Shown piece by piece: positions 7,031 through 59,896 of a DNA stretch of 64,000 bases. Positions within the stretch are counted from its first letter, which is position 1, and every line of letters begins with the position of its first letter. The stretch spans positions 467,441 to 531,440 of the forward strand of contig NMRA01000145.1 in NCBI GenBank assembly GCA_002633005.1, written 5' to 3'. The notes under the pieces were generated by a model. That model did no database searches. It saw only the letters and a program-made list of their open reading frames with translations, and had not been told where the DNA came from. Origin of the DNA: Phoronis australis (taxonomy: Eukaryota; Animalia; Phoronida). Position numbers and translations under genes: made by a program.

Positions 7031-8776
7031 TCACGCGCGTTTACCTCTAAGTGGGAAACTGTCAATCTTTCTTTCAATTTCTTTTAGAATTTGTCGGTCC
7101 CATCAACTTCAACTGCTCTACATGGTTTTAATACAGGCGGAATGTTCTTACATCCAGGCAACCTAACAGGGATTATGGTGCTGTCTTCTCCTCTTTCGCT
7201 CCTATCGGCAATAATTGACGTAAGAGTACGGAAAGCCACCGACGTGCCTGTGAAGAAGTCATCACTGCAGAAAACTAGTACATATTGACACGATTTGTCG
7301 AGGATAGTCCATGATTCGACAGTGTTCTCTCCACACAACAGATCTCGATCAAGAAAGAAGCACCGTACTTGCAACTGCTTCTCCAAGTACGTCAGACACT
7401 ATTGCGGCAATTTGGTCGATGTCGTCATCATGGTAAACGACACCAAACTCGTACTCATCTTCGTATTGTCCCCTAGCTAACCGTTGAGCTTTACTGCTCA
7501 TTTCTTTTGCACTGTCTGAAGAACCCATTTTCTCATAAATATTCGCCCACAACTCGTACAAATCGCTGTCTAGATTTCCGCCATGTTGTTCAGCCTGCTG
7601 GCACCGTCCAATGGCGGCATGGTATTCACCTTTCAGGAAATGGGCTTTTGCTAATTCCCGTGAACAGTACCACACATCAAACCCCTTTTCAATAGCAATT
7701 TTAAAACAACCTATGGCTTTGTTGAGTAACTTTACTTTCTCGGAAGAGTTGTCTAGCTTACACTCACAGTCATATTTCTCAAGACTCCACAGCCCTAGCA
7801 AATGGTGACCATAACCATTCTCCTCGTCCAAATCAATAGCTGCTTGCAAATCATCTCTGGCTTCAGGCATGAAACCCATGTTCATGTATGCGAGACTAGT
7901 GCGTCTGAGAATCATAGGCGCGTTTGTAGAAGTTGCTTTCTCATTAGCCTTTTTCATACAGCTTTGTACTGTGCAATCAGAAAATTCTTTTGGACAGTCT
8001 AGGCCTTCAACATCTCCCAGTCGTCTATATTTTTGCGGTCGATCGTATCTGGACATAAGTGATCCTATGAAGCACCATGCCTTTGGGACCGTGTCTTTCC
8101 ATAACTCTTGTAGAACGGTATCATTCGAAGTTGGGGTTGGCTGTTTGGAGGTCACAATCCTATAAAGGTATTCCATTGATTCTTTAAAGTATTTAGACTG
8201 CGTCTTGCCGTATGTGTTATCTGTGATGAAACAGAAGTAGGCATATCCGAGAGACCATTCTATTTTGGTGTCCTTGGGAACTTCATTGCAATGTATTGCT
8301 TCAAGAAACAAACTTCGGGCTACTGGAATACCACCCGGTTGCAGTTGAGCATTGACAGCTGACATAATCCCAGCAAGCTCATACTTAGCGTACGCCTTAC
8401 TTCTGTCTACCAACGAATCGTTGGACAGGATATCCTGGATTTTCGTCTCGTACTCTTCAGCTTTTGAAGGAAGTTTCATTTGTTCATAGGTGAACAGTAG
8501 GTTGAGTAGGGCGTTTATACTAGAGGGGTTTTCTGTAAGAACGTCTTCAAACCATCGAACAGCTTTGTCGTTTTCATTTATTTTGAAGTTCAAATATCCC
8601 AGTAAAATCATCATGGTGTGTCTTCTTGCATTCGGTTCACTTTTTATTTCTCTTGAAAATCGATGAAGGCACTTTTCAAACGTGCCTTTCATGTTCTGTA
8701 GAAAGCGGTTTGTGAAAAGGCTGGCGATGCCATCCTTACGCAGTTGCTTCACTACATCCCTGCCTTCTGCCATCAT
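7031..8776 (-). pseudogene. TPR-TIR paralog 1: TPR region intact, TIR frameshifted; as sequenced it would make a 475-aa TPR-only protein (8776-7349)
   Basis: ORFs 7349..8866 and 7084..7386 together align to intact paralog 2. A 4-nt insertion GTAC at 7387-7390 shifts the frame after ...IVSD. A 1-nt deletion near 7086 creates a second shift; the repaired tail reads ...DKF-x-KEIERKIDSFPLRGKRA*, stop at 7031-7033. The start is taken as ATGATG at 8776, just after the acceptor ttgcag|attc. Confidence 0.85.
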
Positions 8777-14644: not shown

Positions 14645-16402
14645 TTAAAGAGCGTTGTCCTGGATGGTGAAACTTTCAAACTTTCTTTTAATTTCGTCTT
14701 TGAATTTATCTGATCCATCAGCTTCAATCGCTCTAAATGGATTTAAAACAAATGGAATGTCCTTACATCCAGGTAACTTTGCAGGAATTATGGTGTTACG
14801 TTCTCCTCTATCACACCTGACATTTATAATAGACGTCAGGGTATTGTAAGCTACAGAAGTGCCCGGGAAAAAATTATCACTACAGAAAACTAGGATACAA
14901 TGGCACATTTTTTCAAGTGCACACCATGTTTCGACAGTGTTATTCCCACATAATATATCTCGGTCAAGAAAGAAACACCGCAGATGCAGCTGCTTCTCCA
15001 AATCAGTAATTAAAGCGGTAATATGATCAACGTCTTCGTCATGGTAAACGACACCAAAATCGTGCTTTTCGCTATCATACTGCCCCCTAGCTAACTTTTG
15101 AGCTTTATTACTCATTTCTTTTGCGCTGTCTGGACATTCCATCTTTATATAAATTTTTGCCCACAACTCGTACAACTCACTGTCTAGATTTCCGCCATGC
15201 TGTTCAGACTTTTGACAACGTCCGATAGCGGCATTGGGATTACCTTTCATAAAATAAGCTTTGGCAAGTTCTCGTAAACAATACCACATATCAAACCCCT
15301 TTTCAATAGCAACTTCAAAACAACGTATGGCTTCGCTGAGTAAATGTGTTTTATCATTGGAGCTGCCTTGCGCACACACGTACTCATAATTCTTAAGAAA
15401 CCATTGCCCAAGCAAATTGTGACCATAACCACTTTCCCCATCCAGATCGACAGCTTGTCGCAAACATTTTTCAGCCTCAGGCATCCACGTCTTACCCATG
15501 TCCATGTATACTAGACCAGTTCGTCTTAGAATCATCGGTGCGTTTTTCAAAGTTGCTTTCTCATTAGCCTTTTTCATACAGCTTTGTACTGTGCAACCAG
15601 AAAATTCTTTTGGACATTCTAGGCCTTCAACGTCCCCCAGTCGTATGTATTTCTGCGGTCGATCGTATCTGGACATAAGTGATCCTATGAAACACCATGC
15701 CTTTGAAACCGTGTCTTTCCATAGCTCTTGTAGGGCGGAATTATCATCATTCGTGGTGGGGGTCGGCTGCTTTGAGATAACAATCCTGTAAAAGTATTCC
15801 ATTGATTTTTTGAAGTATTTATCCTGCGTCTTTCCATATGTATTATCCGTGTTGAGGCAAAAATATGCATAACCGAGAAACCATTCTACTTTGACGTCTT
15901 GGGGAACTTCTTCACAAAGTATTGCTTCCTGAAACAGGTCGTCGGCTACTTGAAAACCCCCAGTTTGCAGCTGAGCATTGACAGCTGACATAACACCCGC
16001 AAGTTCGTACTTAGCGTAAGCCTTACTTCTCTCTGCCAACGAATCGTTGGACAGGATATCCTGGATTTTCTTCTCGTACTCTCCAGCCTTTGAAGGAAGT
16101 TTCATTTGTTCATAAGTGAACAGTAGGTTGAGTAGGGCGTTTATACTAGAAGGTTGTTCTTTAAGAACGCCTTCGAACCATTCAACGGCTTTGTCGTTTT
16201 TACTGGCTTTAAAGTTCAAGTATCCCAGCAGGATCATAACAGTGTGTCTTCTAGCATACGGTTCACTTTCTATCTCCCTTGTATAACGGTTGAGGCACTT
16301 TTCAAACGAACCTTTCATGTTCTGTAGAAAACGGTTTGTGAAAAGGCTTTTTATGCCATCTTTACGCAATTGCTTCACCACGTCTCTGCCTTCAGTCATC
16401 AT
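14645..16402 (-). CDS. TPR-TIR paralog 2 (585 aa): TTC22/IFIT-like TPR repeats plus C-terminal TIR domain, intact
   Basis: Uninterrupted ORF. TPR motifs include ILLGYLNFKASKNDKAVEWFEGVLKEQPSSINALLNL, ILRRTGLVYMDMG...AEKCLRQAVDLD and CLRELAKAYFMKGNPNAAIGRC. TIR elements are box-1-like HDFGVVYHDED, box-2/BB loop RCFFLDRDILCG, betaC ILVFCSDNF and betaD TIIPAKL. The splice acceptor ttgcag lies 4 nt before ATGATG. Confidence 0.92.
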   Translation of the reverse strand: MMTEGRDVVKQLRKDGIKSLFTNRFLQNMKGSFEKCLNRYTREIESEPYARRHTVMILLGYLNFKASKNDKAVEWFEGVLKEQPSSINALLNLLFTYEQMKLPSKAGEYEKKIQDILSNDSLAERSKAYAKYELAGVMSAVNAQLQTGGFQVADDLFQEAILCEEVPQDVKVEWFLGYAYFCLNTDNTYGKTQDKYFKKSMEYFYRIVISKQPTPTTNDDNSALQELWKDTVSKAWCFIGSLMSRYDRPQKYIRLGDVEGLECPKEFSGCTVQSCMKKANEKATLKNAPMILRRTGLVYMDMGKTWMPEAEKCLRQAVDLDGESGYGHNLLGQWFLKNYEYVCAQGSSNDKTHLLSEAIRCFEVAIEKGFDMWYCLRELAKAYFMKGNPNAAIGRCQKSEQHGGNLDSELYELWAKIYIKMECPDSAKEMSNKAQKLARGQYDSEKHDFGVVYHDEDVDHITALITDLEKQLHLRCFFLDRDILCGNNTVETWCALEKMCHCILVFCSDNFFPGTSVAYNTLTSIINVRCDRGERNTIIPAKLPGCKDIPFVLNPFRAIEADGSDKFKDEIKRKFESFTIQDNAL

Positions 16403-17199
16403 GAATCTGCAATATTGAAAGGAATTTTTTTATGCAAAATAAAAGAAACACCCTGTCGTGTAGATGGAATTGCATGTCTTTCTGTCTCATAAACGAGAAT
16501 GAAACAGCCCGTCCGACATATGTTCTAAACAATACACCATAGCTGGTACATCTGTAGCTAAAAAGTTACACGTTAACCGGGAAACGGTCAGTTTGATGGT
16601 ATTAGGTCTGTTGTCGCTTATAAACGTAACCATTTTGCGATTGGTTAAACCTTGAAAAATGTTGTCATCACATACTTTGAAATTTCCACAACACGATGAT
16701 TTAGGTTGTACATTCACAAAATTCGAATACACAAAGCTGACTTCTGAATCAACAATGTTGCATGAGAGAACTATTTCAGTTCTTTCAAAAGCTGTCCACG
16801 AGCGCGTTCGTATACTAACTAGCACTCACACATGTAGGCCCGTACGAAATGCCAAAGCATAGTTCAACCTGGTCTTTAAGTTTGAATGTACAAAGCCTTT
16901 AATCATAATACATAGTTAAGTATTTCGGCCAGGGTCCCTTTGATGCATTATTTAATGTCAAGTGTTAAAATAATTTGACGGCTTATAATTCGAACACATG
17001 GAAAACATCGTTTTTGTCTTTGCTTTTACTAATTATCCCAATTTCTTTGAAACTTACTTCGGCATAAATCACTGTGCGACTGTAGATCCGTTTAATTACC
17101 TCCCCTGTGGGAATACCCTCCAGGTCTGCCATAACCTCACCCCGCATGTCTATGGTCCTTGAAAATTATTAGCATATTTGTACCATTGAAAACTGAGGG

Positions 17200-17960
17200 A
17201 CGGACGCCAAAAACAGACTCGAAAACAAAAAAATGGCCACTAGGTGGCGCAAAGTATGAATCCATCGAAAACGAGAGGATAGCGTCATCTCACTAATAGA
17301 TGTCTATGTGCCAAATTTTATGGAAATCCGTTGAGGACCTTTGAAGATACAGAGGTAAACGTAAAAAACTAAAACTGCCACTAGGGGGCACACCGGTACA
17401 CTGACCTGTTCGAAAGTCGTCGTCGTCCGTTGCCAACTTCATATAAATACATTTGCTAAATTTAATAGAGATCCTGTAGAACGTTTAGGAGATACAGCCA
17501 TGGGCGCAAAACAAACAAAACTGCCACTAGGAGGCGCCACTGTAGTCGAAAATCGTCAACTGTCTTCTTCATAGTAAGAACACACATGCTAATTTTCACA
17601 ATCATCCTTAAAGTGGTTTGGTTGTTAGACGGGCGGACGCCAAAAAAAAACGACTCGAAAACAGTAAAAACTGCCACTAGATGGCGTAAAATGCCTCGAA
17701 TCCATCCGAAAACGAGAGGGTAGCGTCAACTCATTAAAAGATTCCTATGTGCCAAATTTCACAAAAATCGGTTGCGGACCTTTGAAGATACAGAGGCAAG
17801 CGTACAAAACTAAAATTGCCACTAGGGGGCACAGTGGTATTCGGGTCGGTCCGAAACTCGTCGCCCTCTGTCGTCAACCCCATTGGAACACACTTGCCAA
17901 ATTTCAATAACACCCTGCAAGGGGTTTAGGAGATACAGCCGCGGACGCCGGAGGCCCAGA
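17200..17960. repeat. Interspersed repeat with ~440-bp higher-order duplication and ~145-bp subunits, each carrying CCACTAGRDGGCRY
   Basis: Motif copies at 17237, 17378, 17524, 17674 and 17819. Segments such as GGACGCCAAAAA..GACTCGAAAAC, CGAAAACGAG..TAGCGTCA and GGACCTTTGAAGATACAGAGG recur about 440 bp apart. An inverted relative is at ~49225-49515. Confidence 0.85.
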
Positions 17961-23218: not shown

Positions 23219-23896
23219 TTGCAGCCGATTTCATAAAGGTGGTTTGAAGTTAAACGTGGTTTAAACTGGACGTAGACCAGGTTTAAAGATAAACTGCATT
23301 TCATAAAGGTGGTTTAACTTTTAGACCAGTGGTCTAGTAAAACCTGGTTTAACTCCAGCCTTTTTAGACCTGGTCTAAGTCAGTTTTCATTTCACCAACG
23401 ATGTCTATATTCTTTAGACCTGTATTAAAATCTTAAACCAGGTTTAACTTTGGACTTGGTCAGACCCAGGATTACTGTTAAATGTGTCTGACTTGCATGG
23501 TATAGGTACAACTGAATGATGCCGCGGAGTGCATTTGCGACGCAGTTTTAGAGCCTCTAAAACTGCGTCGTAAATGCAAACCACAGCATCAACCAGTTGC
23601 ACCTATATCGTACAAGTCTGTCATATTTGATAGTTTTAAACCTGGGTCTGACCAAGTCTAAAGTTAAACCTGGTTTAAGATCTTAATACAGGTCTAATTA
23701 AGTAATATATACCTCGTAGGTGAAATGAAAACTGACTTAGACCAGGTCTAAAAAGGCTGGAGTTAAACCAGGTTTTACTAGACCACTGGTCTAAAAGTTA
23801 AACCACCTTTATGAAATTCAGATTATCTTTAAACCTGGTCTAAGTCCAGTTTAAACCACGTTTAACTTTAAACTACCTTAATGAAATCGACTGCAA
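23219..23896. mobile_element. ~680-bp fully palindromic foldback element/MITE
   Basis: The left arm TTGCAGCCGATTTCATAAAGGTGGTTT... is the near-exact reverse complement of the right arm ...ATGAAATCGACTGCAA. Symmetry continues to the centre (~23554, GCAGTTTTAGAG-C-CTCTAAAACTGC). Internal AAACCTGGT/TAGACCAG subrepeats are present. Confidence 0.9.
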
Positions 23897-26615: not shown

Positions 26616-27364
26616 TTAAAGTACTTTTGTTCACGAATTATTGTTGGATATTGCAAATATGCTATTACTCGCTAATTCTAAGCTATAAGTCTCTCGATAA
26701 AAATCAACAATCATTTGGTGTGCTGCGTACATTTTAAACAAAGAACATCAACAGGATACATTTTAGGTGTGGCAAAACGCCCCCTTTCATGTTCTGAAAA
26801 AACAACCTCATAGGATATATTTGTATTGGAACATCCACCACCCTTTCACTTCTTGTGAAATTTCACTTTTGAAATCACTGATGTGGGTATGATGAGCAAA
26901 ATGTAATTTAATACATTGATGGAGATTGCCACTCGTCTTGCGGCGAAGTGCAACGATGTAAGATTATCAACTCTTTCCTGGCCTTTCTTGAGAAGAGGTG
27001 AATCTATCCCATGGGTGAGTTTAAATTCACCCATCATTTTCCCCAGGTTCATCAGACGATAACAGGAGCCTGCTTTGTATTTTAGGCTGCTCCCGAACAG
27101 GCAACGGATTTCTGTCTTGGCTCCGAGTTGTAAGCAGATTTTTGACTTGTAGCTTGAGCCATGCCAAGACTGATTCTTCACCTTAGAATAAAAAGACAAC
27201 AGACTCTTCCGACAAACAGCCCTTTGATATTACTGAGGTCTGAATAAGTTGGCAGTCACTGCGATAGTCGACGAAACGTTTTATTTCGAATAATTGAAGC
27301 CATGCCTCTTTAAATAGCGCTCAGATGTTAAGTAGATCTACCATGAACACTTACTTCCATATGA

Positions 27365-27467
27365 ATTTTCAATCACATTTACCTCGAAGAGACAAACTAT
27401 CAATCTATCTTTTGCATTCATGAATTTATCTGACCCATCAACTTCAATTCCTTTGCATGATTTTAAG
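27365..27467 (-). pseudogene. Relic 3' end of a further TPR-TIR paralog
   Basis: AAACTATCAATCT...GAATTTATCTGACCCATCAACTTCAATT...CATGATTTTAA aligns with the 3' ends of paralog 1 (~7056-7131) and paralog 2 (~14700-14745). It translates on the minus strand as LKSCKGIEVDGSDKF, versus LKPCRAVEVDGTDKF in paralog 1. Confidence 0.75.
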
Positions 27468-29248
27468 CCCCCACCCCCTCTGTCACACCCAAACGCTCTT
27501 GATAAATGACGTATTTTATGAAGTCACCGGTCTCGATTTCAACAAGTGCCTGGCAGACAACAGTGAGAATAGGAACTTTGTAATCAAATCACAAAAACAA
27601 TAGATTTTGGTTTTTCTGCTGAACCTGGTCAACGCTAATAACTTAAAGAAGTCTACCCCATCCAATATTAATCCCCAAATCGACTGTAAAACCGATAAAA
27701 AATTCCATTTAATGTTTAATTTACTTCAGAAACGGACCACTCTTTAGAGTTTCGAGCTTCCATGTGAGCCTTTTGCTCAAAATTTTGTTGGAAACATTAC
27801 CCTTTTGTAAAGAAACTGCTGGTGAAAAAGAGACACTTTTCTGTGCGGTACGACCTGTTTCTCTTCAATGCGAGTGCCCATTAACATAATGAGTGGGGCT
27901 AGCTGCTCCCAGGGGCCAACATGGAAGGGGTGCCGAAAAGCTGTATACCCCCAAAATATAAAACCTATGCATAGCAATGTTTTCTGCTTATAAGGTGTGC
28001 TTTTTCCTTACGCACCAGTATCACACGAACCAGAATTTGTGAAAATGGTTCAGTTCCCACAAAAAACATTTGTGGTATTACTTCTATGGTACAATGTCCA
28101 AGGCTGTTAAAGTCATTCTTACACCCTCTTAAATGCACGGGCCTTCTAGAGTTCTCATGTCATGCATTCCTTTGTCACGAACTTTGTCATTTCTTTCCTC
28201 ATCAACCGCTGTTCTTACCACTTTGACAGGCTTAAGTGCATGCTTTGTAAACTATATCAAAGCTACCTAGACTATGACGAAAGATGCGAAAGGCTTTTTA
28301 ACACCAACCTGTTCAACAGTACAAAGAGGAGTGACGTGTAAAAATGAAAAAGGGGAGAAAAAATGAGAATAGTTGGAGGTAGTGGCTCATGTCTTTATCA
28401 AGACCGCCGTTCTCGTGGGTATTGAAAAAGGGATGAGATTTCCTGAGATCTCCTGGTGTGGGTGTAATCAAGATTCAGTAAACAGACCATGAGGTTATCA
28501 CTGCCATGGCCGTATGATTTTTAAATCACAATTAAAAAAAATTCCGCCACTGTTTGGCATGATTTTGACAGATGTCGCTTTTTAAAAACATCTTCCTTCC
28601 TGCAGAATGAAGAGAAATACTAGTATCCAAATTCCTATAATTTTTTACTTCGACGAACGGACATTTTGACTATCTTTGAATCCAGTAACCGCCGTGCAGA
28701 GTTGGAACTAATTTAGTCTTCTAGTTATTTATTTGTTGAACAAATTTCATTCGTTTTGCACGTCCGTTTTGAGTAAAGTTATTCCCAACCAGTCAAGCAT
28801 ATCCAAAATGCTCTAACGTCAATGTTTAAGTTGCTGAATATTAGTGACCTCAAGCCAAAAAGGATGTACGTGAAAACTTGGACTGCGAATCACAAATAAC
28901 GTCAGTTAACTTTTTAATGGTGAAAAGAAAGACTGTACAAAGCATAGGAAATAAAAGGCGTACCGCATTTTCACGTGCTTAATGACAGATTTTGTCAAAT
29001 TAATGATGGGTCAAATTTCGCTAACACACATGGTTTCAAAAAATATTTCATACAGTCTCATTACCACTTGCGCTTCACTCATCAGTATGGTGTCATGATA
29101 GTTGTCGCAGAAGAGACACATGTGTGTGACTGTTATTCCACTTTGAACGTGACGTATTTGTCTTTCGATAGTGCGTGGTGTTCCTCATTTATAGTTTCTG
29201 GATGCTTCTTACATGCTACACCTGGACAAGTTATTTTCCCCAACGTTT

Positions 29249-30961
29249 TTAATCACGTTTATCCAAGCAGTTAACGTCTCTGTTAATTTCGTCGATGTAT
29301 TTATCAGCGTCAACCTCTATAAGTGAATTTAAATCCCTTGGAATATCTTTACATCCGGGTAACTTTGCAAGAGTTATGGTGCTTTTATCTCCTCTACTGA
29401 ACCTGCCATTTATAATAGATTTCAGGGTTACGTTAACTTCTGAATTGCTAGGGAAAAATTCACCACTACAGAAAACTAGGATACGGCAGCACGACTTGTC
29501 GAGTGTATCCCATGGTTCAAGACTTAATACATCTCCATCAAGAAAAAAGATCCTCAAGCACAGCTGCTTTTTCAAATTATCAAGTATCGCAACAACTTTA
29601 TGGATGTCGTCGTCATAGTAAACGAAACCAAAATCGTACTTTTCATCATACTGCCCCGTAGCTAGCTTTTCAGCTTTACTTCTCATTTTTTTTGCTTCTT
29701 CTGGATAATCCATTTTAACATAAATTTTTGCCCACAACTCATACAGCTCTTTGTCTAGATGTCCGCCATGTTTTTCGGATTGTTGACAACGCCTAATGGC
29801 GTCACTGCAATCACCATTCAAAAAATGAGCATCGGCAAGATCCAAATAACAGTGCCACAAAATGAAACCCCTTTTAAGGGCATCTTTAAAACAGCCAATG
29901 GCTTCTTTGAGCAAATCAGTTTTCTCGGAGGTTTTATCTTGCTCAGGTGTTAACTTATACTTCTTAAGATGCCATCGTCCTAGCAAATTGTAGGCGTAAC
30001 CGTTTTCTGGATCCAATTTGACTGCATCTTTAAAATATTGTTCTGCCTCCACCATCGATTCCATATCCATATATACAAGACCTGTTCGTCTCAAAATCAC
30101 AGGCTTATTGAAACGATTTGCTTTTTCATTCGCTTTTTCCATGCAACTGTGTAGTGTGCACGCAGAATACCCTTTTGGACAATCTATAACACATTTCAGT
30201 TCTTCATATCTTGTGAATCGATCATATCTTGACAAAAGTGTTCCCATGAAACACCATGCCTTTGGAACTAGGTCGTTGAATTCCGTCTCTTGTCTGGCAA
30301 ACTCATCAGCATCCTCGCGTTGGACCGGTTTTTCCATTGTAACTATTCGATAAAAATATTCCATTGATTCTTTGAAGTGTTCAGGCTGTGTCTTTCCATA
30401 AGCAGAATCTATGTTGAAGCAAAAGAATGCATATCCAAATAGCCACTCTAACTTTTCATTTTCAGGAACTTCACTGCAACCTATTGCCTCTTGAAACAAG
30501 CTGCGGATTACTGGAATACCCCCGGGCTGTAGCTGAGCATCAATAGCCGACATAATGCCCGCCAGTTCATACTTAGCACGGACTATACTCTTTTTTGTCA
30601 ACAAACCATTTGACAGGATGTCTTTTATTTTCTTCTTGTATTCTTCTACTTCTCGTTGTTGTTTCATTCCTTCGTAGATATATAGTAGATGAAGAAGTGA
30701 GTTAATGTTATTAGCGTCATCACTGACAACTGTTTCAAAGTTTTTAATGGCTTCATTGCAGTTACCATCTTTATAGTTGAGATAGCCCAGCAAGATCCTT
30801 ACGATGTGTGTTCGAGCATGCGGCTCTCTTTCTATTTCTTTTGAAAAGCGATCAAGGCACTCTTTAAGCGTGACTTTCATGTTCAATAGAAAGCGATTTA
30901 TGAAAAGGCTGTCGATACCGGCTTCATGCAGTTCTTTTACTACGTCCATGTCTTCCGCCAT
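29249..30961 (-). CDS. TPR-TIR paralog 3 (570 aa), ORF intact but TIR BB loop carries R>G and a ~4-aa deletion
   Basis: Uninterrupted ORF colinear with paralog 2. The TIR reads YDFGFVYYDDD...RIFFLDGDVL----SLEPW, versus RCFFLDRDILCGNNTVETW in paralog 2. The acceptor ttacag|tttcataATG is conserved. Confidence 0.9.
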   Translation of the reverse strand: MAEDMDVVKELHEAGIDSLFINRFLLNMKVTLKECLDRFSKEIEREPHARTHIVRILLGYLNYKDGNCNEAIKNFETVVSDDANNINSLLHLLYIYEGMKQQREVEEYKKKIKDILSNGLLTKKSIVRAKYELAGIMSAIDAQLQPGGIPVIRSLFQEAIGCSEVPENEKLEWLFGYAFFCFNIDSAYGKTQPEHFKESMEYFYRIVTMEKPVQREDADEFARQETEFNDLVPKAWCFMGTLLSRYDRFTRYEELKCVIDCPKGYSACTLHSCMEKANEKANRFNKPVILRRTGLVYMDMESMVEAEQYFKDAVKLDPENGYAYNLLGRWHLKKYKLTPEQDKTSEKTDLLKEAIGCFKDALKRGFILWHCYLDLADAHFLNGDCSDAIRRCQQSEKHGGHLDKELYELWAKIYVKMDYPEEAKKMRSKAEKLATGQYDEKYDFGFVYYDDDIHKVVAILDNLKKQLCLRIFFLDGDVLSLEPWDTLDKSCCRILVFCSGEFFPSNSEVNVTLKSIINGRFSRGDKSTITLAKLPGCKDIPRDLNSLIEVDADKYIDEINRDVNCLDKRD

Positions 30962-32732: not shown

Positions 32733-33660
32733 CGTGGCCACTCAGCTTCGCGGCAATTGTCGCCAATGTTGTCACGTTTCGCCCGTGCTTTGTTTTGTCT
32801 TCATTTATTTCGTTCGTGTTTTGTCACGACTGAGAAAATCTTCGCACTCTTTGTTGTCTTTTTATTCCTGCATGATTTTAAGCGTGGGCACACCCGAATG
32901 TTTTCAAACCATTCATTGTGGTACAAAACAAAGCCAAAGTCACAGTTCATGGTGACCTCGTGAGGCAAGGAAAGGTCAGTCAGCGGCAAAACAGTATCTA
33001 AAAACATTGCGTGCAAATAACAAAGAAGTTTTAAAAACCATTACAAAAGTTTTTTTTCATAAAATCCGATCCAATATTGCATTTGCACACAATGATGTGT
33101 GCTATTGGGCCTCGCGGCGTTCCTCATGCTGTGAAGAACTATTTGCACGTCTTGGGTATACAACCCTTAGTATTTAAATTTATGACGTGTCTTGAGTAAA
33201 TACTCTGACATACTTCGTGTACAAATGCTACTAAAGAGATTTTGTAAAAAGGCGTTTGCATAAAGCCTCTTTCTGTCTTTTGCATAAATGTTTCACAATG
33301 TCATCGTGCTTGGTATGTGTATTGTGCCTCACATTCTCATAGTCTTCATTGCTGTGTAGAAATGTTTGCACGTAATTGGCCAAGCCACCCTGGGCTTGCA
33401 GTGTGTAATGTATATACATCTATGCTTGCAAAATCTGTCCTGAGAACTACATTTGACACAACGGTGTGTGATGTTGTGCCTCACAATCTCAATGAATCTA
33501 ATTTGTGCTACTTAAGACAGGTTTTGTAAAAAAACATTTGTGCAAGCTCTCTTATTGTGGTACTGATGCATAAATGTGTCATAATGAATGCCATCGCGCT
33601 TAGTATGTCAATTTATGGTTACTAACGGTTTTTCATTGAGTGCTTCATTTGCACACAATG

Positions 33661-33843
33661 GTAAATATATATAGGTAAATAAAACAACAAGAATGGATGG
33701 ATCAACTGAAATTTTCGGATATATTAACATCCTCCGTCAACAGAAACGTGTCAACATCTGTTTCTGTTGACGAAGTGTGTTATTATATCCGAAAAATTCA
33801 GTTGATCCATTCTTGTTGTTTTATTTACCTATATATATTTTAC
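33661..33843. repeat. ~180-bp AT-rich palindrome inserted within a degenerate ~150-bp repeat region (33080-34070)
   Basis: GTAAATATATATAGGTAAATAAAACAACAAGAATGGAT...AACAGAAAC mirrors GTTTCTGTT...ATCCATTCTTGTTGTTTTATTTACCTATATATATTTTAC, with a ~12-nt loop. Confidence 0.88.
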
Positions 33844-36072
33844 ATTTCGTGAAACAATAGTATCCTTGAGAGGATCTGGATCGCCTTATTTAGTTTCAGA
33901 TTTATTTTCTACGTTATTTATACAATGAAATGGCATGTACGTATATTACTGCACCTCACAATTTCATTATTTTTATTGCCGAGAATTCTTTACACGTTTT
34001 GGCCCTGTCATCCTTTTATGATGTGACTTTTGTAAATACATCTGTGTTCCTTGTGTACAATACAGTATTTTTAAGCATTTCCTTAGTTTTCATTGTAAAG
34101 AATAGCTGAATATAGTACATGTACATTATATTACGACAGGGTCAAATGGTTTGGAAAGAAAAAATATTTGTACTACCTAGAGAAAGAATCGCGCATCCGC
34201 CCACTCTGCCTAAATCTGACAGAAATTCTGATTGAAGCTTTAAACAAAAAACGGTCTCTTCAAGAAATATTCATGCTTCATGTGATGAACACTAAGTGTT
34301 CACGTGAAGGTGTAGCTATTTCCCACCGGCATTCCCAGTATAAATAGATTTGTGGTCTGTGTCTGAACTGGGCCAACAAAGCTGACTCACGCTGAGGTCA
34401 GAGTCACATTTTAGTCTCCTGCATAATGTTTGTCTAAGCCTTCTTTACGTGACTCGTAGTCTCGGATTTGTGCTACGTAAGCCACAAGAGCTGGCTTATC
34501 AAGATGCTTCTGTGACCATTTTGGGCATTTTTGTTTTGATGTCGCAAATCATTGTATTTCAGAAAAGTAATAAAGTCTCCATGTCCTACACATTTCCATG
34601 AAATTTAAATTTTAAAGTTGACTAAATGTGCAAATTATAGATGGAATGAAACATAATTGAAAATTAAATTCCATGAGGCGTGGTACTACGACTTCAACTA
34701 TTAATTCATTTACGTATTGTATCCACGACACGACAACAAAGATTTCCATCACAAAACATTCAGGAGGTTAGTTAGCAAAAAAGGTGTCGGTACGAGTAAA
34801 TGCTAACACAAGTTAGTGAGTATTAATTCTGACATTGTCATTTTCTTTCCAGATTCAGCTATTCATAATCTACTCCTTTCCAGTGCCTCTTGTAAACGAG
34901 TTAGTGACGCAGGCTTTTTGTCTGTCCAGGAGAAGAACATAAAACGATTTATTGACGAACAAATGCCAATGACCTCAACATGTTTGTAGAAGAAGTTAAT
35001 TTATAAACACTCTAAACATCTTCTCTTTTTTCAATTTACATGGTAAAACACAAGGATTCAGCTACTTATTACCATTCACTTTGTATCGTTCGACCACAAA
35101 ATCCTTTTGTTTTTTGATTTTATGATTTCCAATTCCTCCTGTTGGCTATCAGCTTCATTCTCTGAAATCGAGGCCGGTGAATTTTTTCATATAATTCCCT
35201 TAAAACACCCTGCTATTTACCGAGTGGGGTTTAATTACCAAGAAAAGGGTTGGACTGCTACAGCTGAAGTCGGGGATTCGAATCGGTCACAGACTGATAT
35301 GAAAAATACATTATTCTTGCCGATTGTACATCGTTTAGCCAAATATCTACAAAACTATACATTTTAACTCAGTAAACGTGTTTTTTTTCTGAAAGTAGAA
35401 AAGATGCAGAATTCGACTTTTGATTTTATACCAAACTTGCATTGATTGGATCACGTGACCATGTGCTTTAATTGAAATTAGCAAAAACGAAAGTTACTTC
35501 CATAACAAATCAACGGTATCAATAGCCTGATCAAATTCAGTTTGACATGAATATACAATGTGTATTCTCAAAAACGCTGTTCCAGTTTTCTAAATTACCA
35601 TTTCGTTTTCATTTGATGCTACTTTTCAGTTTTTTCATAAAAATGATAAAAGTTCAAATTTTTGATAGCCCCTCATGCAAAAGCGGAAAGTTTAAAAAAA
35701 ATCCTAAAAGCGTTTTGGACAACAGAGCACGAACTATGGTGCCTAAAAGTTTCATGCATAAAGGGCAGTTTCTTCCCACTGGTATCTTAAACGTATCAAT
35801 TATGAAGTAGGGGGATTAACTCTGACATATTGATCATGTTCCAATTGTTTTTAAAGCCCGGGGTGTACAAAATTTTGTTTAAAAACACGAACAGAAAAAT
35901 AATATTATCAACCAATACGGCGTGCGCAAACAGTTTGCTTCAGGATTCAATAGACGAGACTCATTTCATGCCTCATCTGCACAAAGAAAACTTGGAATGG
36001 CACCCAAAATTATAACGAACAAGGTACGGTCAAGTCGAGGAGGTATCGGAAAAAGGGAACGTCAAATGGATC

Positions 36073-37630
36073 CCAGGAATTTTGAGCCGGAGGAACGTGG
36101 GGACGGGAGGACACAAAGTCAGAAGAACAGCAAATATTGAAAACATGACTGTAGCTTATCTGGGAACATTGGAGCATTCATTTTGGGTGAACTGTGAGGG
36201 AGGAAAATGTTGGTACCGGAAAAACACTAATAGAGACGAAACGGAAGATGGTTCACTGAGACTTCTTGGGATCATGGTTACCTGACAGAAACCAGCGTTC
36301 CATAGACGCAAGACATTTGCGAAGAGAATTTTCACTGAAACAGCTAATCCTAGCGAAACCACGCAAGACTACACAAATTCATGCAAGTGAAGGCGAGTGT
36401 TTACTGAGAAAGCTCGGGAACTTCAGTGTTCGTATGCATCACCATCTCGGATCAGTCTAGGAGACTGGGTAGCCAAGTACATTATTCCCGTTTCATAAGC
36501 CAAGATTTCTCGCAGCAAGTTTCTGGCGAGTGTTTTGCTCTACAGTACGCAGCCCAGTTTAGGCGAAGAACTCCGCGTACAAACGGACAGCTAGAAGATA
36601 ACCTTCAGGTTTTGCCCAGAGGCAAATTTTGCACGCGGGCGACTCAATTTTCTCAGATTTTTACCATTTGTTCGAATAAAACGAGGGATGTCCTCACATA
36701 GATCGAGAGATGTTCGAATGTGTTTGACGGGGTTTGCGGTTGGGAAATTAAAATACCAACCCGAGTCAGTATGCAGGATGAGAGTAACGAGAGTCAAGCG
36801 AATTAAGACGCGCACTTGTTAGGAGCTTCTGTAAAAATCACTTCCTCGTAGATTTTCCATCAAACTGAGCGACACGTTCCGAAAGTGCCACATACATTTA
36901 TTGAAGTATCCCTGGCTAACATTGTCAGCGACAACAACCCGACTGGCGCCGTATACAAACAAAGGAGCATCCGAGTCATAATCAACACAAGAGGTCACTG
37001 TGAAAATTCTTGACTCATATGAGCTTATCAATAGACAAGAGAAACGGGCAGCAACAAAACCAGCAACCTACATTACGAGTATCATTTTCACTGCATGTTT
37101 ATAGCTCTATTCCGTGTTGTTCAGGTCTAACGAATACCCGCTGAGCTCATTGACCGAAGTTGTTGAAAATAGACCAAGGTAAGTGGAATGCATCGAACAA
37201 GATTTCTGTTGTTGCGACCACGCAGTGACATTTTGATCTAAAGAACAGCGATCACTGATTAAACCATCTATTTTGTACTTCCGTTTTTTTGGCTACGTGG
37301 TCGTTTATCGTAGGATAAAGTCTCATAAGATACACACCGAATTGTCAACAATTTCCGTAACGTACAAGCAATTTATTACGCTCATCTATGAATCAATTTC
37401 TTGGAAATCCAGGGGTTTAAACATATCTTATATAGTGGCAAGTATATTAGCTGCCACCACTAGGCATCGAATTTCAGAGCAAATGGTAATAACCGGGGTC
37501 GTGTCCGCTCTTAAGCGGCTTTCTTATCATGTGACCACGTATTGTTATTAAAGACTCTATGAAAGAACAAACTGAAATGCCAGACATTTGCACTAGCAAA
37601 TAAGTTGAAGTGGCAAAACTAAACCAGGGG
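36073..37630 (+). repeat. Segmental duplication block A (5' region of the TPR-TIR pseudogene), homologous to 52150-54957
   Basis: Long colinear matches, e.g. CATTCATTTTGGGTGAACTGTGAGGGAGGAAA, CACTTGTTAGGAGCTTCTGTAAAAATCAC, AAAGGAGCATCCGAGTCATAA, AAGGTAAGTGGAATGCAT, GAATCAATTTCTTGGAAATCCAGGG and ACAAACTGAAATGCCAGA. Confidence 0.92.
37125..37178 (+). other. Putative upstream exon (54 nt) of the TPR-TIR pseudogene
   Basis: Acceptor TTCCGTGTTGTTCAG and donor AAG|GTAAGT are both conserved in the duplicate (54113-54163). The exon is open in the phase that would join the main exon. Predicted only. Confidence 0.5.
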
Positions 37631-39240: not shown

Positions 39241-39353
39241 CCTTACAGCCTGCGGAGTACCGAGATCAGGCAGGGCGCGGGGAAATAAAAGCGTGGGCTA
39301 ATTTTTAAAAGAGCGGATCCACTGATTAGCGTTGCCTGTATTACAGGTTCACG

Positions 39354-40073
39354 ATGGTTAAAAGAGAAGCCTCCAAGATGCATCGTAAAGATGGAATTGA
39401 TAACCTGTTCACCCATCGGTTCCTGCAGAACACGAAAGACTCGTCCAAGCAACCCGAGAACCGAGAACGCTTTTCAAGAGAAAGTCGAAGACGTCCCATT
39501 GTGATTATGCTGGGATATTTAAAATTTAAAGTTAAGAAATGCCCAAATGCTATCGGATGGTTTAAAAAGGTCCTTAAAGAAGATTCATACAATTTAAAGG
39601 CCTTGCACAGTCTGGTACTCGTTCACGACCTATTGAAATTGCCAAAGCGGCTGGAGAGTATGAGGAAAGAATTTACGATGTTCTAGCGATGATTCTATGA
39701 TGGACATTTCCATGGCGTGCGCCAAGTATGAACTTGCAGTCATTTAGACGACAGATGGTACTCATTTTCAGCCTGGTGGAGTTTCAGTAACCAAAAATCT
39801 TTTCTGTCAGGCTCTGTAAGGTAAAGAAATTCTCCACGTTGACCAGAAAGAAAGACAACTTGCTTACGCATTTTTTGCTTTAAATTTAGACCAAGTTGAC
39901 TGAACATTTCGTAGAAGCGGTGGGAAATTTCTATGGGATAATAACCATCAGTGAAGAAAAACACCTGGACGGAAGAACGCGCTGCGAGATAAAGTGACGT
40001 TAACTGCAAAGGCGTGGTGTTTTGGGGAAGTCTTTGGTTTAAACACAAATGATTTGAAGAGTACAGGAATTAA
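39354..40073 (+). pseudogene. TPR-TIR paralog 4, pseudogene (5' part only), closest to paralog 5
   Basis: Aligns to ~58181-58951 (MVKREASKMHRKDGIDNLFTHRFLQNTKDSSKQPENRERFSRE...) with deletions, frameshifts and stops. The same acceptor context CCTGTATTACAG|GTTCA is present. Homology stops at a TTAA at 40070-40073. Confidence 0.93.
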
Positions 40074-58177: not shown

Positions 58178-59896
58178 ATGATGGTTGATAGAGAAGTCTT
58201 CAAACAGCTTCGTAAAGATGGAATTGATTGCCTATTCACCAACCGGTTCCTGCAGAACATGAAAGACTCGTTCAAGCAACCCGAGAATCGAGAACGCTTT
58301 TCACGAGAACTAACGAATGAACCGCATGCGCAAAGTCGAAGACGCCCCATTATGATTTTACTGGGATATCTAAATTTCAAAGTTGATAAATGCAATGATG
58401 CTATTGGATGGTTTAAAAAGGTCCTTGAAGAAGATCCAAATAATTTAAACGCCTTGCTCAGCTTGGTATTTGTTCACGACCAGTTGAAATATCCTAAAGC
58501 CGCTGGACAATATGAGAAAACAATTCTCGAAATTCTAGGCGATGGTTCTTCGGTGGGCATTTCCATGGCGTGCGCCAAGTATGAACTTGCAGCCATTTTG
58601 ACGGCAGTTGATGCTCATCTTCAGCCTGGTGGAGTTATGGTAACCAAAAGTCTTTTCTGCCAGGCACTGAAATGTAAAGAAATTCCCGACGTTGACCAGA
58701 GAGAAAAAGAATTTGCTTACGCATTTTTTTGCTTTAATGTAGATACTGTTAATGGACCCAAGTTGTCTGAATATTTCGTAGAAGCGGTGAGCTATTTCTA
58801 TGGGATTGCTAAATGGGATCAACAATCCGTGAAGAAAAACACGTGGACGGAAGAACGAGCGGCGAGATTAAATGACGTAACTGCCAAGGCCTGGTGTTTT
58901 TTGGGAAGTCTTTGGTCTAAACACGAGCGATTTGAAGAGTACAAGAATTTAAGTGCTTTGTTAGGGGAAAAATGCAGCGAAGAACATGCCGAATTTACCT
59001 TGCATGACTGTATGGAACAAGCAAATATTTTAGCAATGGAGTCGAATAAAGCTGTCATTTATAGAAGAATCGGCCTCGCTTATATGTACATGGGGGATCT
59101 GAATAAAGCCGAAGAATTTCTGAAAGATGGTGTCAAATTGGATGAGAAAGATGGTTATGCCCGCTGTTTAGTTGGACGATTCAACCTGAGAATGTTTAAA
59201 AAGTCAAAGCAGATCGATATCCTTAATCGGGCAATAGAGTGTTTTGAAGCCGCCATAAAAAGAGGTTTCAATGTGTGGCACTGTTTTTTAGATCTTGCTG
59301 AAGCCCAGTTTTTGAAAGGTGAAAATATGGAGGCTGTTGCAAATTGCAGATTGTCAGAAACCAACGGCGGAAAATTGAAAAGTCGGCTATTTAAACTATG
59401 GGCGGACATTCTTGAGAAATTGGATGACCCGAAAAGTGCGACGGAAATGAGAGAAAAGGCTCGCCTAATTGATGAACATAAAATCAATGACGATGCAAGG
59501 CACGATTTTGGTGCCATATACAATGACGAGGATATTAACGAAGTGGCAGGTTTTGTGGATATTTTAGAGAGACAATTGCACCGACGATGCTACTTTCCTG
59601 AGCGAGATACGATGTGTGGTGATGACTTAGTAGATGCATGGGGAAACGTTGACAAAACGAGCAAGGTTGTGCTTGTTTTCTGTGGCAATAAGGAGTTCTA
59701 TTCCCATGCTAGATTTGCTTTACACAGCATCATAACTAAAAGAGGCGGCAAAGGAGAAGCCAATACAGTTGTGCCTGTTAAATTGTCTGACTGTAAAAGT
59801 GTTCCAGATTTATTAGTGGCCAATAAACCAGTGGTGTATAATGGATCGGATGAGTTTGTGGAGGAGCTTGAAAAGAAGTTGGCCCTCTGTGACTAG
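58178..59896 (+). CDS. TPR-TIR paralog 5 (572 aa), intact, most divergent copy
   Basis: Uninterrupted ORF. TPRs include ILLGYLNFKVDKCNDAIGWFKKVLEEDPNNLNALLSL and IYRRIGLAYMYMGDLNKAEEFLKDGVKLD. TIR: HDFGAIYNDED...RCYFPERDTMCG...VVLVFC...TVVPVKL. The acceptor TTACAG lies 4 nt before ATGATG. Confidence 0.92.
   Translation: MMVDREVFKQLRKDGIDCLFTNRFLQNMKDSFKQPENRERFSRELTNEPHAQSRRRPIMILLGYLNFKVDKCNDAIGWFKKVLEEDPNNLNALLSLVFVHDQLKYPKAAGQYEKTILEILGDGSSVGISMACAKYELAAILTAVDAHLQPGGVMVTKSLFCQALKCKEIPDVDQREKEFAYAFFCFNVDTVNGPKLSEYFVEAVSYFYGIAKWDQQSVKKNTWTEERAARLNDVTAKAWCFLGSLWSKHERFEEYKNLSALLGEKCSEEHAEFTLHDCMEQANILAMESNKAVIYRRIGLAYMYMGDLNKAEEFLKDGVKLDEKDGYARCLVGRFNLRMFKKSKQIDILNRAIECFEAAIKRGFNVWHCFLDLAEAQFLKGENMEAVANCRLSETNGGKLKSRLFKLWADILEKLDDPKSATEMREKARLIDEHKINDDARHDFGAIYNDEDINEVAGFVDILERQLHRRCYFPERDTMCGDDLVDAWGNVDKTSKVVLVFCGNKEFYSHARFALHSIITKRGGKGEANTVVPVKLSDCKSVPDLLVANKPVVYNGSDEFVEELEKKLALCD

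What the first reader, a model, noticed from the sequence alone, without database searches (positions are those of the whole stretch)
14645..15075. The TIR looks TICAM (TRIF/TRAM)-like: Cys-Gly BB loop and no catalytic glutamate
Seen: the BB loop is RDILCG / RDLLCG / RDTMCG, with Cys where most TIRs have Pro. The helix that carries W-C-x-x-E in NADase TIRs reads TSVAYNTLTSII / TSVAFRTLTSII / SHARFALHSII, with no Glu at that position. The tail reads NTIIP...PFVL...AIE....F...I.R.FES. Established: TRAM has Cys117 at the BB-loop Pro position; SARM1, plant and bacterial NADase TIRs need the alphaC Glu; the TRIF N-terminal domain is structurally IFIT-like. Inference from a by-eye comparison to TRAM (KFVILHAEDD, MPCG, FYTSL, NSVIP, PFAL..INALE...F..QVERIFQES): this is a scaffold-type, TICAM-related TIR. 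An IFIT-like solenoid plus a TICAM-like TIR would mirror TRIF architecture and may bear on the origin of TRIF.
Basis: partly seen in the sequence, partly recalled or inferred. Interest (0 to 1): 0.8.

Follow-up and report, generated by a model that had tools for sequence, protein, structure and literature searches.

The report
IFIT-fold solenoid fused to non-catalytic TIR
This is one of five neighbouring copies of an animal gene whose protein joins a repeat domain predicted to fold like the antiviral RNA-binding IFIT proteins to a signalling (TIR) domain that lacks the enzyme's catalytic glutamate, so it likely works as a one-piece immune receptor-adaptor, while its resemblance to the vertebrate adaptors TRIF and TRAM is likely convergent.

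Summary
The motifs are real but come from three paralogs, not one. The window holds five copies of a single-ORF TPR-TIR gene: three intact, two broken. Cys-Gly is in 3 of 4 TIRs; the fourth has a BB-loop deletion. No copy has the alphaC Glu. The 'TRAM-like tail' occurs in one copy only.

The TICAM reading is not supported:
- MyD88 or TLR-type TIRs outscore TRAM in every PDB sequence search that hit a TIR.
- The loop is the RD-type Box 2 of TLR/MyD88/MAL.
- Structure scores are tied.
- MyD88 and MAL also lack the Glu, and all 6 MyD88-like hits lack the Pro.
- pLxIS, RHIM and TRAF motifs are absent.

No tree with TICAMs could be built, so the idea is not formally refuted.

The stronger result is upstream. 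Residues 1-440 model as a full-length IFIT-type solenoid (IFIT5 Z 25.6; best non-IFIT 19.9). The same TPR-TIR layout occurs in mollusc and echinoderm proteins ('TTC22-like' in abalone), where the abalone TIR keeps Pro-Gly and W-C-x-x-E. Three copies are transcribed, and dN/dS is mostly 0.15-0.36.

Best reading: a non-enzymatic variant of an invertebrate TPR-TIR receptor-adaptor family; ligand and partner untested.

The parts
14645..16402 (-). Copy c2: intact single ORF, 585 aa (P0001), TPR/IFIT-type solenoid 1-440 plus TIR about 444-580; holds the finding
   Evidence: ORF and translation; Pfam TPR + TIR_2; strand-specific RNA reads at depth 0.5-3.8 in three runs
14645..15075 (-). TIR domain of c2 (the finding)
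   Evidence: TIR_2 29.3 bits; AF2 model pLDDT 82.3; all 50 rows of the structure list are TIR/SEFIR proteins, Z 12.0-14.2
14945..14962 (-). BB loop RDILCG; apex Cys485 (codon TGT, 14948-14950)
14825..14860 (-). alphaC helix; the position of the NADase Glu is Asn520 or Thr521 depending on register; T523-S524 follows
15086..16402 (-). IFIT-type TPR solenoid of c2 (residues 1-439)
   Evidence: VIA Z 25.6 to IFIT5, rmsd 4.5, 374 aligned, model 1-440 to chain 7-409; IFIT5 sequence match E 3e-6, in register
16407..16420 (-). Splice-acceptor-like site (pyrimidine run + CAG) 4 nt before the first ATG; present 4-7 nt before the ATG in all five copies; upstream exon not found
   Evidence: sequence; no joint shown among the listed ones
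7084..8776 (-). Copy c1: frame change near 7390 at the start of the TIR and premature stop at 7084-7086; still transcribed
   Evidence: DNA contig over 5500-7959 lists no indel there and RNA reads cover it
29249..30961 (-). Copy c3: intact ORF, 570 aa (P0002); TIR has lost the alphaA Glu and the Box 2 Arg and has a 4-residue BB-loop deletion
   Evidence: TIR dN/dS vs c2 0.77; expression not examined
39318..40070 (+). Copy c4: decayed 5' fragment with stops and frameshifts, no TIR; 81% DNA identity to c5
58178..59896 (+). Copy c5: intact ORF, 572 aa (P0003), BB loop RDTMCG; transcribed
   Evidence: strand-specific RNA depth up to 20 across the ORF in three runs

Best explanation
The gene encodes a TPR solenoid predicted to have the full IFIT fold, joined directly to a TIR that lacks the NADase glutamate, and it likely acts as a cytosolic one-chain receptor-adaptor: the solenoid would bind a ligand (RNA 5' ends are the leading guess) and the TIR would then nucleate MyD88/MAL-type TIR filaments rather than cleave NAD+. 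Shown here: the architecture, five tandem copies, transcription of c1, c2 and c5, purifying selection, loss of the Glu and the Cys apex. Predicted: the IFIT fold. Inferred from similarity: membership of a wider mollusc/echinoderm TPR-TIR ('TTC22-like') family. The abalone member keeps Pro-Gly and W-C-x-x-E, so Cys-Gly and Glu loss would be lineage-specific and convergent with TRAM. Untested: ligand, partner, filament formation, immune induction.
For: Fold: the top 11 of 50 VIA rows are IFIT5/IFIT1 (Z 22.6-25.6, 370-379 aligned, from residue 1-2); best non-IFIT Z 19.9 over 263-266 residues. IFIT5 has the highest query TM-score among the Foldseek rows shown (0.47). A sequence profile hits IFIT5 246-357 in the same register (E 2.7e-4; E 3e-6). 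TIR type: alphaA Glu + RD Box 2 in 3 of 4 copies, as in 16 of 20 other TIRs, the motif described for TLR/IL-1R/MAL/MyD88. MyD88 is the top PDB hit; 6 of 19 library hits form a MyD88-like clade. All four human TLR adaptors lack the Glu and form two-stranded filaments through the BB loop, where Cys works as the apex in TRAM. Family: P0024 (abalone 'TTC22-like', TPR + C-terminal TIR) was found by the TIR profile and aligns collinearly over 57-323 vs 48-316. The whole protein scores 0.97-0.98 with three ~750-aa eukaryotic TPR clusters, two mostly Mollusca and one mostly Echinodermata; the last has 91% TIR_2 and 78% TPR_2. Function retained: dN/dS 0.15-0.36 in 11 of 12 computable domain comparisons; sense-strand RNA. 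Tandem birth-and-death (3 intact, 2 broken) fits an immune family.
Against: The models rest on 4-sequence alignments, and Z is inflated for helical repeats. By Foldseek E-value SPY, OGT and designed TPRs rank above IFIT5 (rank 11). In the wide representative search the only IFIT listed was IFIT2 (Z 16.7, rank 11), below LGN at 19.9. MamA and BBS4 score above IFIT5 by sequence, and no IFIT is in the top 60 once abalone is added. The solenoid is not net basic (K+R vs D+E 61/58, 64/73, 65/67). The hhalign score to abalone (88%) is matched by 2 of 8 generic TPR controls (90.7%, 88.7%), which were themselves picked by this profile; only its length and register stand out. The TIR tree leaves window and abalone TIRs in a polytomy; grouping them is not rejected but not shown (p-AU 0.099; with MyD88-like TIRs p-AU 0.45). 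The one pair behind the 0.77 dN/dS (c2-c3 TIR) points to relaxed selection on c3.
Confidence: 0.5

Rival explanations
1. Decoys or dampeners. The TIR has lost signalling competence (non-Pro apex, BB-loop deletion in c3, solenoid-only product from c1) and the proteins sequester ligand or cap TIR filaments of TLR/MyD88.
For: c3 has lost the alphaA Glu, the Box 2 Arg and 4 BB-loop residues, and shows relaxed TIR selection. c1 is transcribed but would stop near the start of the TIR. Negative regulation is the proposed, unconfirmed role of mollusc orphan TIRs (PMC11103948 passage).
Against: Cys-Gly and E..RD are kept in c1, c2 and c5, although c2 and c5 TIRs are only 39% identical. Cys is a working apex in TRAM. 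MyD88-named arthropod hits also lack the Pro.
Confidence: 0.18
2. Generic TPR adaptor. The solenoid binds a peptide or protein (as LGN, OGT or Tom70 do), the IFIT match reflects only solenoid curvature, and the TIR links that client to TLR-type signalling.
For: LGN, Tom70 and OGT score Z 18-20; near-neutral charge; 17% identity to IFIT5.
Against: Among the best rows only IFITs align from the first to the last solenoid residue; there is a 5.7 Z gap to the best non-IFIT; the sequence match is in the same register over 105 positions.
Confidence: 0.15
3. One reading: the TIR is of the TICAM lineage, and IFIT-like solenoid + TIR is the ancestral form from which TRIF (N-terminal IFIT-like domain + TIR) and TRAM descend.
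For: The TRIF N-terminal domain resembles the N-terminal TPRs of IFITs (PMC5397763 passages). Cys apex in 3 of 4 copies and 0 of 20 other TIRs. TRAM is matched over 11-138 with TMq 0.71.
Against: The same by-hand mapping gives 7 identities for c2 but only 2 each for c3 and c5, and 3 for the abalone TIR, so most of it is specific to the copy the alignment was fitted to. RD-type rather than ED-type loop; no Pro before the Cys; no Arg at TRAM R119. MyD88, MAL and TLR TIRs outscore TRAM. None of the 10 named clusters among 19 library hits is a TICAM. No pLxIS, RHIM, TRAF6 or TRAF2/3 pattern in 3 of 3 intact copies, and no long linker. The abalone relative has the canonical Pro-Gly and Glu.
Confidence: 0.13
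4. An NAD+-cleaving TIR receptor that uses a residue other than the alphaC Glu.
For: The top structure rows are SPARTA NADase TIRs (Z 14.2, tied with MyD88 at 13.8). The abalone relatives keep W-C-x-x-E.
Against: No acidic residue at either candidate column in 4 of 4 copies; that Glu is described as critical for NADase activity.
Confidence: 0.04

Closest known systems
Invertebrate TPR-TIR proteins annotated 'tetratricopeptide repeat protein 22-like' (abalone XP_046361683.1, XP_046578085.1); possibly the 'TIR-TPR' class named in the oyster survey PMC4346834 (figure legend only seen)
   Same: N-terminal TPR solenoid with a C-terminal TIR; collinear similarity over about 240 columns and TIR similarity E 1e-8 pairwise; language-model score 0.97-0.98 with mollusc and echinoderm clusters
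   Different: 570-585 aa against 714-767 aa; only 21% identity; Cys-Gly and no Glu here against Pro-Gly and W-C-x-x-E in abalone; TIR monophyly not shown
IFIT1/IFIT5 (vertebrate interferon-induced RNA-end-binding proteins)
   Same: Predicted end-to-end fold of residues 1-440 (Z 24-25.6), in-register sequence similarity, tandem gene cluster
   Different: IFITs have no TIR; 17% identity; the model covers IFIT5 only to residue 409-414 of 482; basic pocket and RNA binding not shown
MyD88 and MAL/TIRAP
   Same: Best-scoring solved TIR by sequence and Foldseek; alphaA Glu + RD Box 2; no catalytic Glu
   Different: No death domain; apex Cys; no Box 3 FW; about 20% identity; the score is weak (E 5e-4 to 3e-3)
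TRAM (TICAM2) and TRIF (TICAM1)
   Same: Cys apex as in TRAM; no catalytic Glu; T-S at matching spacing in two copies; an IFIT-like region N-terminal to a TIR, as in TRIF
   Different: RD-type loop; no Pro-Cys dyad; a full 440-residue solenoid rather than one small N-terminal domain; no disordered linker, pLxIS, TRAF or RHIM motifs; no N-terminal Gly at the present start; lower scores than MyD88 and MAL

Membership tests
TICAM (TRIF/TRAM) | TIR closer in sequence to TRIF/TRAM than to other TIRs | tested here: not met
   MyD88 20.4 > MAL 18.6 > TRAM 15.9 bits, TRIF absent; TRAM and TRIF absent at E<=10; TRAM 27.3 bits, below Hydra TRR-2, TLR15, MyD88, TLR6, MAL, TLR1/2,
TICAM (TRIF/TRAM) | TIR structure closer to TRIF/TRAM | tested here: inconclusive
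   Z: SPARTA 14.2, MyD88 13.8, TRAM 13.4, TRIF 13.4, ACT1 13.2, all tied; Foldseek E favours MyD88, TM favours TRAM by 0.01
TICAM (TRIF/TRAM) | BB loop EDFxxPG (TRIF group) or Pro-Cys dyad (TRAM P116-C117) | tested here: not met
   RD-x-[LM]-C-G in 3 of 4 copies, deletion in the fourth; motif definitions. Only the Cys is shared
TICAM (TRIF/TRAM) | TRAM TS site (T155-S156) | tested here: inconclusive
   T-S in c1 and c2, K-S in c3, H-S in c5 at the ungapped offset (numbering); mapping by hand
TICAM (TRIF/TRAM) | TRIF pLxIS, TRAF-binding and RHIM motifs in disordered regions | tested here: not met
   0 matches in 3 of 3 intact copies (regular expressions written from recall); the TIR follows the last helix directly and ends the protein
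TICAM (TRIF/TRAM) | TRIF N-terminal domain fold or profile | tested here: inconclusive
   No TRIF N-terminal family among Pfam hits and no such chain among the listed fold matches; a small domain would rank low in these lists
TICAM (TRIF/TRAM) | TRAM N-myristoylation site | tested here: inconclusive
   No Gly2 at the present starts, but an upstream exon may exist
TICAM (TRIF/TRAM) | Groups with TICAM1/2 and amphioxus TICAM in a tree | not testable with these tools
   No search returned a TICAM as a usable sequence; the tree has none
TICAM (TRIF/TRAM) | No catalytic Glu | tested here: met
   4 of 4; not diagnostic, since MyD88 and MAL share it
MyD88 | N-terminal death domain | tested here: not met
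   TPR families only
MyD88 | alphaA Glu + Box 2 RD | tested here: met
   c1, c2, c5; also shared with TLR, IL-1R and MAL
MyD88 | Box 3 FW | tested here: not met
   F-K, Y-I, F-V at the start of the last helix in c2, c3, c5
IFIT | Collinear IFIT solenoid fold | tested here: met
   Z 25.6, rmsd 4.5, 374 aligned, 1-440 vs 7-409; predicted model from 4 sequences
IFIT | Basic RNA-binding pocket with conserved residues | tested here: inconclusive
   Invariant Arg293 falls on IFIT5 position 253 if the match has no gap at its start (coordinates; alignment not seen; the role of R253 is recalled); net charge near neutral
IFIT | Binds 5'-triphosphate or cap-0 RNA; induced by interferon or virus | not testable with these tools
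   needs binding and challenge experiments
IFIT | Stand-alone TPR protein without a signalling domain | tested here: not met
   fused TIR in one ORF
Invertebrate TPR-TIR ('TTC22-like') | TPR solenoid followed by a C-terminal TIR | tested here: met
Invertebrate TPR-TIR ('TTC22-like') | Common descent of both domains | tested here: inconclusive
   Longest in-register N-terminal alignment, but its score is matched by generic TPR controls; TIR clade neither recovered nor rejected, p-AU 0.099
NADase TIR (SARM1, plant, bacterial) | Catalytic Glu in alphaC | tested here: not met
   absent in 4 of 4 window TIRs; present in 11 of 20 other TIRs at that column

The most novel reading that the evidence does not exclude
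These proteins are invertebrate RNA-end receptors in which a complete IFIT-type clamp is wired directly to a signalling TIR. The wider mollusc/echinoderm TPR-TIR family is the ancestral stock from which vertebrate IFITs (solenoid only) and TRIF (first IFIT-like repeats + TIR) were both cut, with catalytic (abalone) and scaffold (this cluster) branches.
Probability: 0.15. Interest if true: 0.85.

Novelty: new variant of a known kind. Interest (0 to 1): 0.5.

Why it matters
IFITs are known as stand-alone antiviral effectors of vertebrates, and TRIF carries only an IFIT-like N-terminal piece. An expanding invertebrate family with a whole predicted IFIT solenoid joined to a TIR offers a testable candidate for a cytosolic sensor in animals where TRIF and TRAM were not found, such as oyster and Aplysia. 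It also gives a concrete set of sequences for testing where IFITs and the TRIF N-terminal domain came from. The abalone/this-cluster contrast (Pro + Glu against Cys + no Glu) is a natural pair for studying the enzyme-to-scaffold switch in TIR domains. The narrower claim as written, that Cys-Gly plus a missing Glu marks a TICAM relative, carries little weight, because neither feature is diagnostic.

Tried and rejected
Homolog searches:
- Word-based searches with the full protein and the 4-copy alignment found nothing at E<=0.001; one search gave 8 generic TPR proteins at E 0.14-9.3, later used as controls.
- The search with abalone P0024 returned only itself and one other abalone protein, so no deep family alignment could be made.
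- Two metagenome scans found no relative (0 of 215 and 0 of 183 pattern matches).
- No genome is held for this window, so copy number outside the window and the host's TLR/MyD88/TICAM set are unknown.
- The Atlas search with the TIR alone gave generic TIR clusters at 0.89-0.91.

Tests of the TRAM resemblance: the c2 tail alone and the stretch from the BB loop to the end gave no TIR hit at E<=10. The c5 TIR gave no TIR hit at all. The TIR tree (24 rows, none left out, no TICAM or vertebrate rows) is unresolved at depth.

Upstream exon: not found. Repeats dominate the joint and loose-end tables (15 of 102 and 15 of 27 joints shown). The block shared upstream of c4 and c5 matches in several frames on both strands, with no single conserved ORF.

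The wide structure search for the TIR model did not run. Earlier scan findings: three look-ups, nothing. No RNA holder was listed by the run search; RNA runs came by species label.

Literature: searches for TICAM+TIR+invertebrate+tetratricopeptide, TIR-TPR/TPR-TIR/ecTIR-DC/orphan TIR (33), IFIT+TIR+invertebrate+amphioxus (51), TTC22+IFIT (68), TTC22 full name+TIR (87) and TTC22+invertebrate+immune (108) listed no paper that, by title and abstract start, describes an IFIT-fold TIR fusion. The library lacks most subscription papers. The amphioxus TICAM paper and the TRIF N-terminal structure paper were not held. The 2017 bivalve/metazoan TIR survey (recalled, not seen) may already describe this family.
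Full report
Locus. The finding lies in the last 430 bases of a 585-codon ORF on the minus strand (c2, 14645-16402). tblastn, nhmmer and a six-frame profile search find five copies in the window: c1 7084-8776(-), c2, c3 29249-30961(-), c4 39318-40070(+) and c5 58178-59896(+), plus a 107-base remnant at 27363-27469. c2, c3 and c5 are uninterrupted ORFs. c1 changes frame near 7390 and stops at 7084-7086; the DNA contig over that stretch lists no indel there, though it may be the source sample. c4 is a decayed 5' piece. Pfam gives TPR repeats and a C-terminal TIR_2. All five copies have an acceptor-like AG 4-7 nt before the ATG. The organism is an animal by inference from the nearest relatives; no genome is held.

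The observation. Every quoted motif is present, but the three BB loops come from c2, c1 and c5. In an alignment of 4 window TIRs with 20 others (the 19 library hits plus P0039), Cys is at the apex in 3 of 4 and 0 of 20. The catalytic column holds Glu in 0 of 4 and 11 of 20. The tail that looks like TRAM is found only in c2.

Is it TICAM-like? By sequence against solved structures, c2 gives MyD88 20.4 bits, MAL 18.6 and TRAM 15.9, with TRIF absent. The 4-copy profile gives MyD88 only among adaptors. c1 gives MyD88, oyster TIR-STING and IL-1RAcP. c5, the tail alone, and the loop-to-end stretch give no TIR. With abalone added, TRAM ranks below Hydra TRR-2, TLR15, MyD88, TLR6, MAL and TLR1/2. The TIR model (pLDDT 82.3) matches MyD88 at E 8.9e-7, TRAM 8.5e-5, MAL 9.7e-5 and TRIF 6.1e-4, with TM 0.71 for TRAM and 0.70 for MyD88. 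Z-scores for SPARTA, MyD88, TRAM, TRIF and ACT1 lie within 1 of each other. A search of 1.84 billion representatives with the TIR profile gave 19 weak hits (best E 2.9e-5). Ten clusters carry a name and none is a TICAM; six hits form a MyD88-like clade (96/92).

The two headline features are not diagnostic. TRIF, TRAM, MAL and MyD88 all lack the catalytic Glu (PMC11745336, passages). The six MyD88-like hits have L, G, V, G, T or G at the apex and no Glu. RDxxPG with the alphaA Glu marks TLR, IL-1R, MAL and MyD88 TIRs, whereas TRIF-like TIRs have EDFxxPG (PMC7075850, passages); c1, c2 and c5 have E...RD. TRAM's loop is P116-C117 with R119; here the Pro is L/L/M and the Arg is N/E/D. No pLxIS, RHIM or TRAF pattern is found in the three intact proteins.

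The same mapping gives c3 and c5 two each and the abalone TIR three. A tree with TICAMs could not be made because no tool returned one as a usable sequence. The 24-row tree is a polytomy at depth and rejects neither a grouping with abalone TPR-TIRs (p-AU 0.099) nor one with MyD88-like TIRs (0.45). TICAM kinship is therefore unsupported but not excluded.

The solenoid. The full-length model (pLDDT 75.7, 4 sequences) aligns from residue 1 to 440 with IFIT5 7-409 (Z 25.6, rmsd 4.5, 374 residues, 17% identity). The first 11 of 50 rows are IFIT5 or IFIT1, and the best other protein has Z 19.9 over 263-266 residues. Sequence profiles hit IFIT5 246-357 in that register. Against this: Foldseek E-values put SPY, OGT and designed TPRs first; the representative-only search listed IFIT2 at Z 16.7 below LGN at 19.9; MamA and BBS4 outscore IFIT5 by sequence; IFITs are not in the top 60 with abalone added; and the domain is not net basic. 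IFIT1, 2 and 5 bind RNA in a positively charged pocket (PMC13740692, passages). The invariant Arg293 maps to IFIT5 position 253 if there is no gap at the start of the match; I did not see that alignment, and the role of R253 is recalled. TRIF's N-terminal domain resembles the N-terminal TPRs of IFITs (PMC5397763, passages), but no TRIF N-terminal match appeared in the Pfam or fold lists.

The family. One library hit, P0024, is an abalone 'tetratricopeptide repeat protein 22-like' of 714 aa with TPRs and a C-terminal TIR. It aligns collinearly with the window solenoid (57-323 vs 48-316, probability 88%). Two of 8 generic TPR controls reach the same score over shorter, out-of-register blocks, and one control aligns longer at 54%, so the score alone is not proof. 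The ESM Atlas places the whole protein at 0.97-0.98 with three eukaryotic clusters of 749-767 aa, two mostly Mollusca and one mostly Echinodermata, the last with 91% TIR_2 and 78% TPR_2; the next hit is 0.90. The abalone TIR keeps Pro-Gly and W-C-x-x-E. The simplest history is a canonical TIR in the family, with Cys and Glu loss arising in this lineage; the direction is inferred. A 'TIR-TPR' class is named in the oyster survey (PMC4346834: figure legends and passages seen; figure and supplements not seen) and in an abbreviation list of PMC9334734 (passages). I could not confirm that it is the same family.

Function. Reads from three RNA runs of one study (about a fifth of each read) cover c2 at depth 0.5-3.8, c1 up to 7 and c5 up to 20, almost all in the orientation expected for sense transcripts; c3 was not examined. 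dN/dS is 0.15-0.36 in 11 of 12 computable comparisons. The exception is the c2-c3 TIR (0.77), and some dS values are near saturation. The four human TLR adaptors assemble two-stranded filaments through the BB loop, with Cys117 filling the apex pocket in TRAM. The best-supported mechanism is therefore a one-chain receptor-adaptor: ligand binding by the solenoid, then TIR-TIR assembly without NAD+ cleavage (0.5). Rivals are decoy (0.18), generic peptide adaptor (0.15), TICAM ancestor (0.13) and atypical NADase (0.04). Ligand, partner and assembly are untested.

Other papers seen: PMC11788365 and its preprint (passages; TRAM motifs, amphioxus TICAM) and PMC11103948 (passages). The remaining search results were seen as listings only. 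No supplements were read, and those of the oyster and TIR-survey papers may bear on whether this family is already catalogued.

Verdict. The sequence features are real. The TICAM inference is weak. The interesting object is the IFIT-fold-TIR fusion, a non-catalytic variant of an under-described invertebrate family. Interest 0.5.

Noticed in passing
window 29249-29650 (c3 TIR): Intact ORF whose TIR has lost the alphaA Glu and the Box 2 Arg together, plus 4 BB-loop residues, with dN/dS 0.77 against c2: a candidate natural dominant-negative copy.
   Followed up: partly
window 7084-8776 (c1): The frameshifted copy is transcribed; it would give a solenoid-only protein ending about 15 residues after the frame change, that is, an IFIT-like product without a TIR.
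   Followed up: partly
window, 4-7 nt upstream of each ATG (16407, 8781, 30969, 39346, 58173): Conserved acceptor-like AG in the same phase (2) relative to the ORF in all five copies. IFIT genes are recalled to have a tiny first exon joined in this way to one large coding exon; the upstream exon was not found.
   Followed up: partly
window 42263-43507 (+) and 44774-46108 (-): DDE_Tnp_4 transposase ORF and a convergent SWIM + YqaJ recombinase ORF, just downstream of the broken copy c4; probably one or two transposons.
   Followed up: no
window 36079-37597 and 52161-54917: Upstream regions of c4 and c5 share blocks of 70-85% identity without a single conserved ORF: possible promoter or non-coding first exon.
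   Followed up: partly
window 23219-23896 and 33649-33854: Long self-complementary stretches (89% and 83%), hairpin- or MITE-like.
   Followed up: no
window 38562-38886: Tandem repeat with a 78-base period, about 96% identity between units.
   Followed up: no
window 17200-17950 and 56810-57000: High-copy repeats with heavy RNA coverage that runs on into unrelated sequence.
   Followed up: no
proteins P0015, P0016, P0020, P0028, P0029, P0030: MyD88-like proteins (three with arthropod names) all lack the BB-loop Pro, showing that the apex residue is freer in invertebrate adaptors than often assumed.
   Followed up: partly
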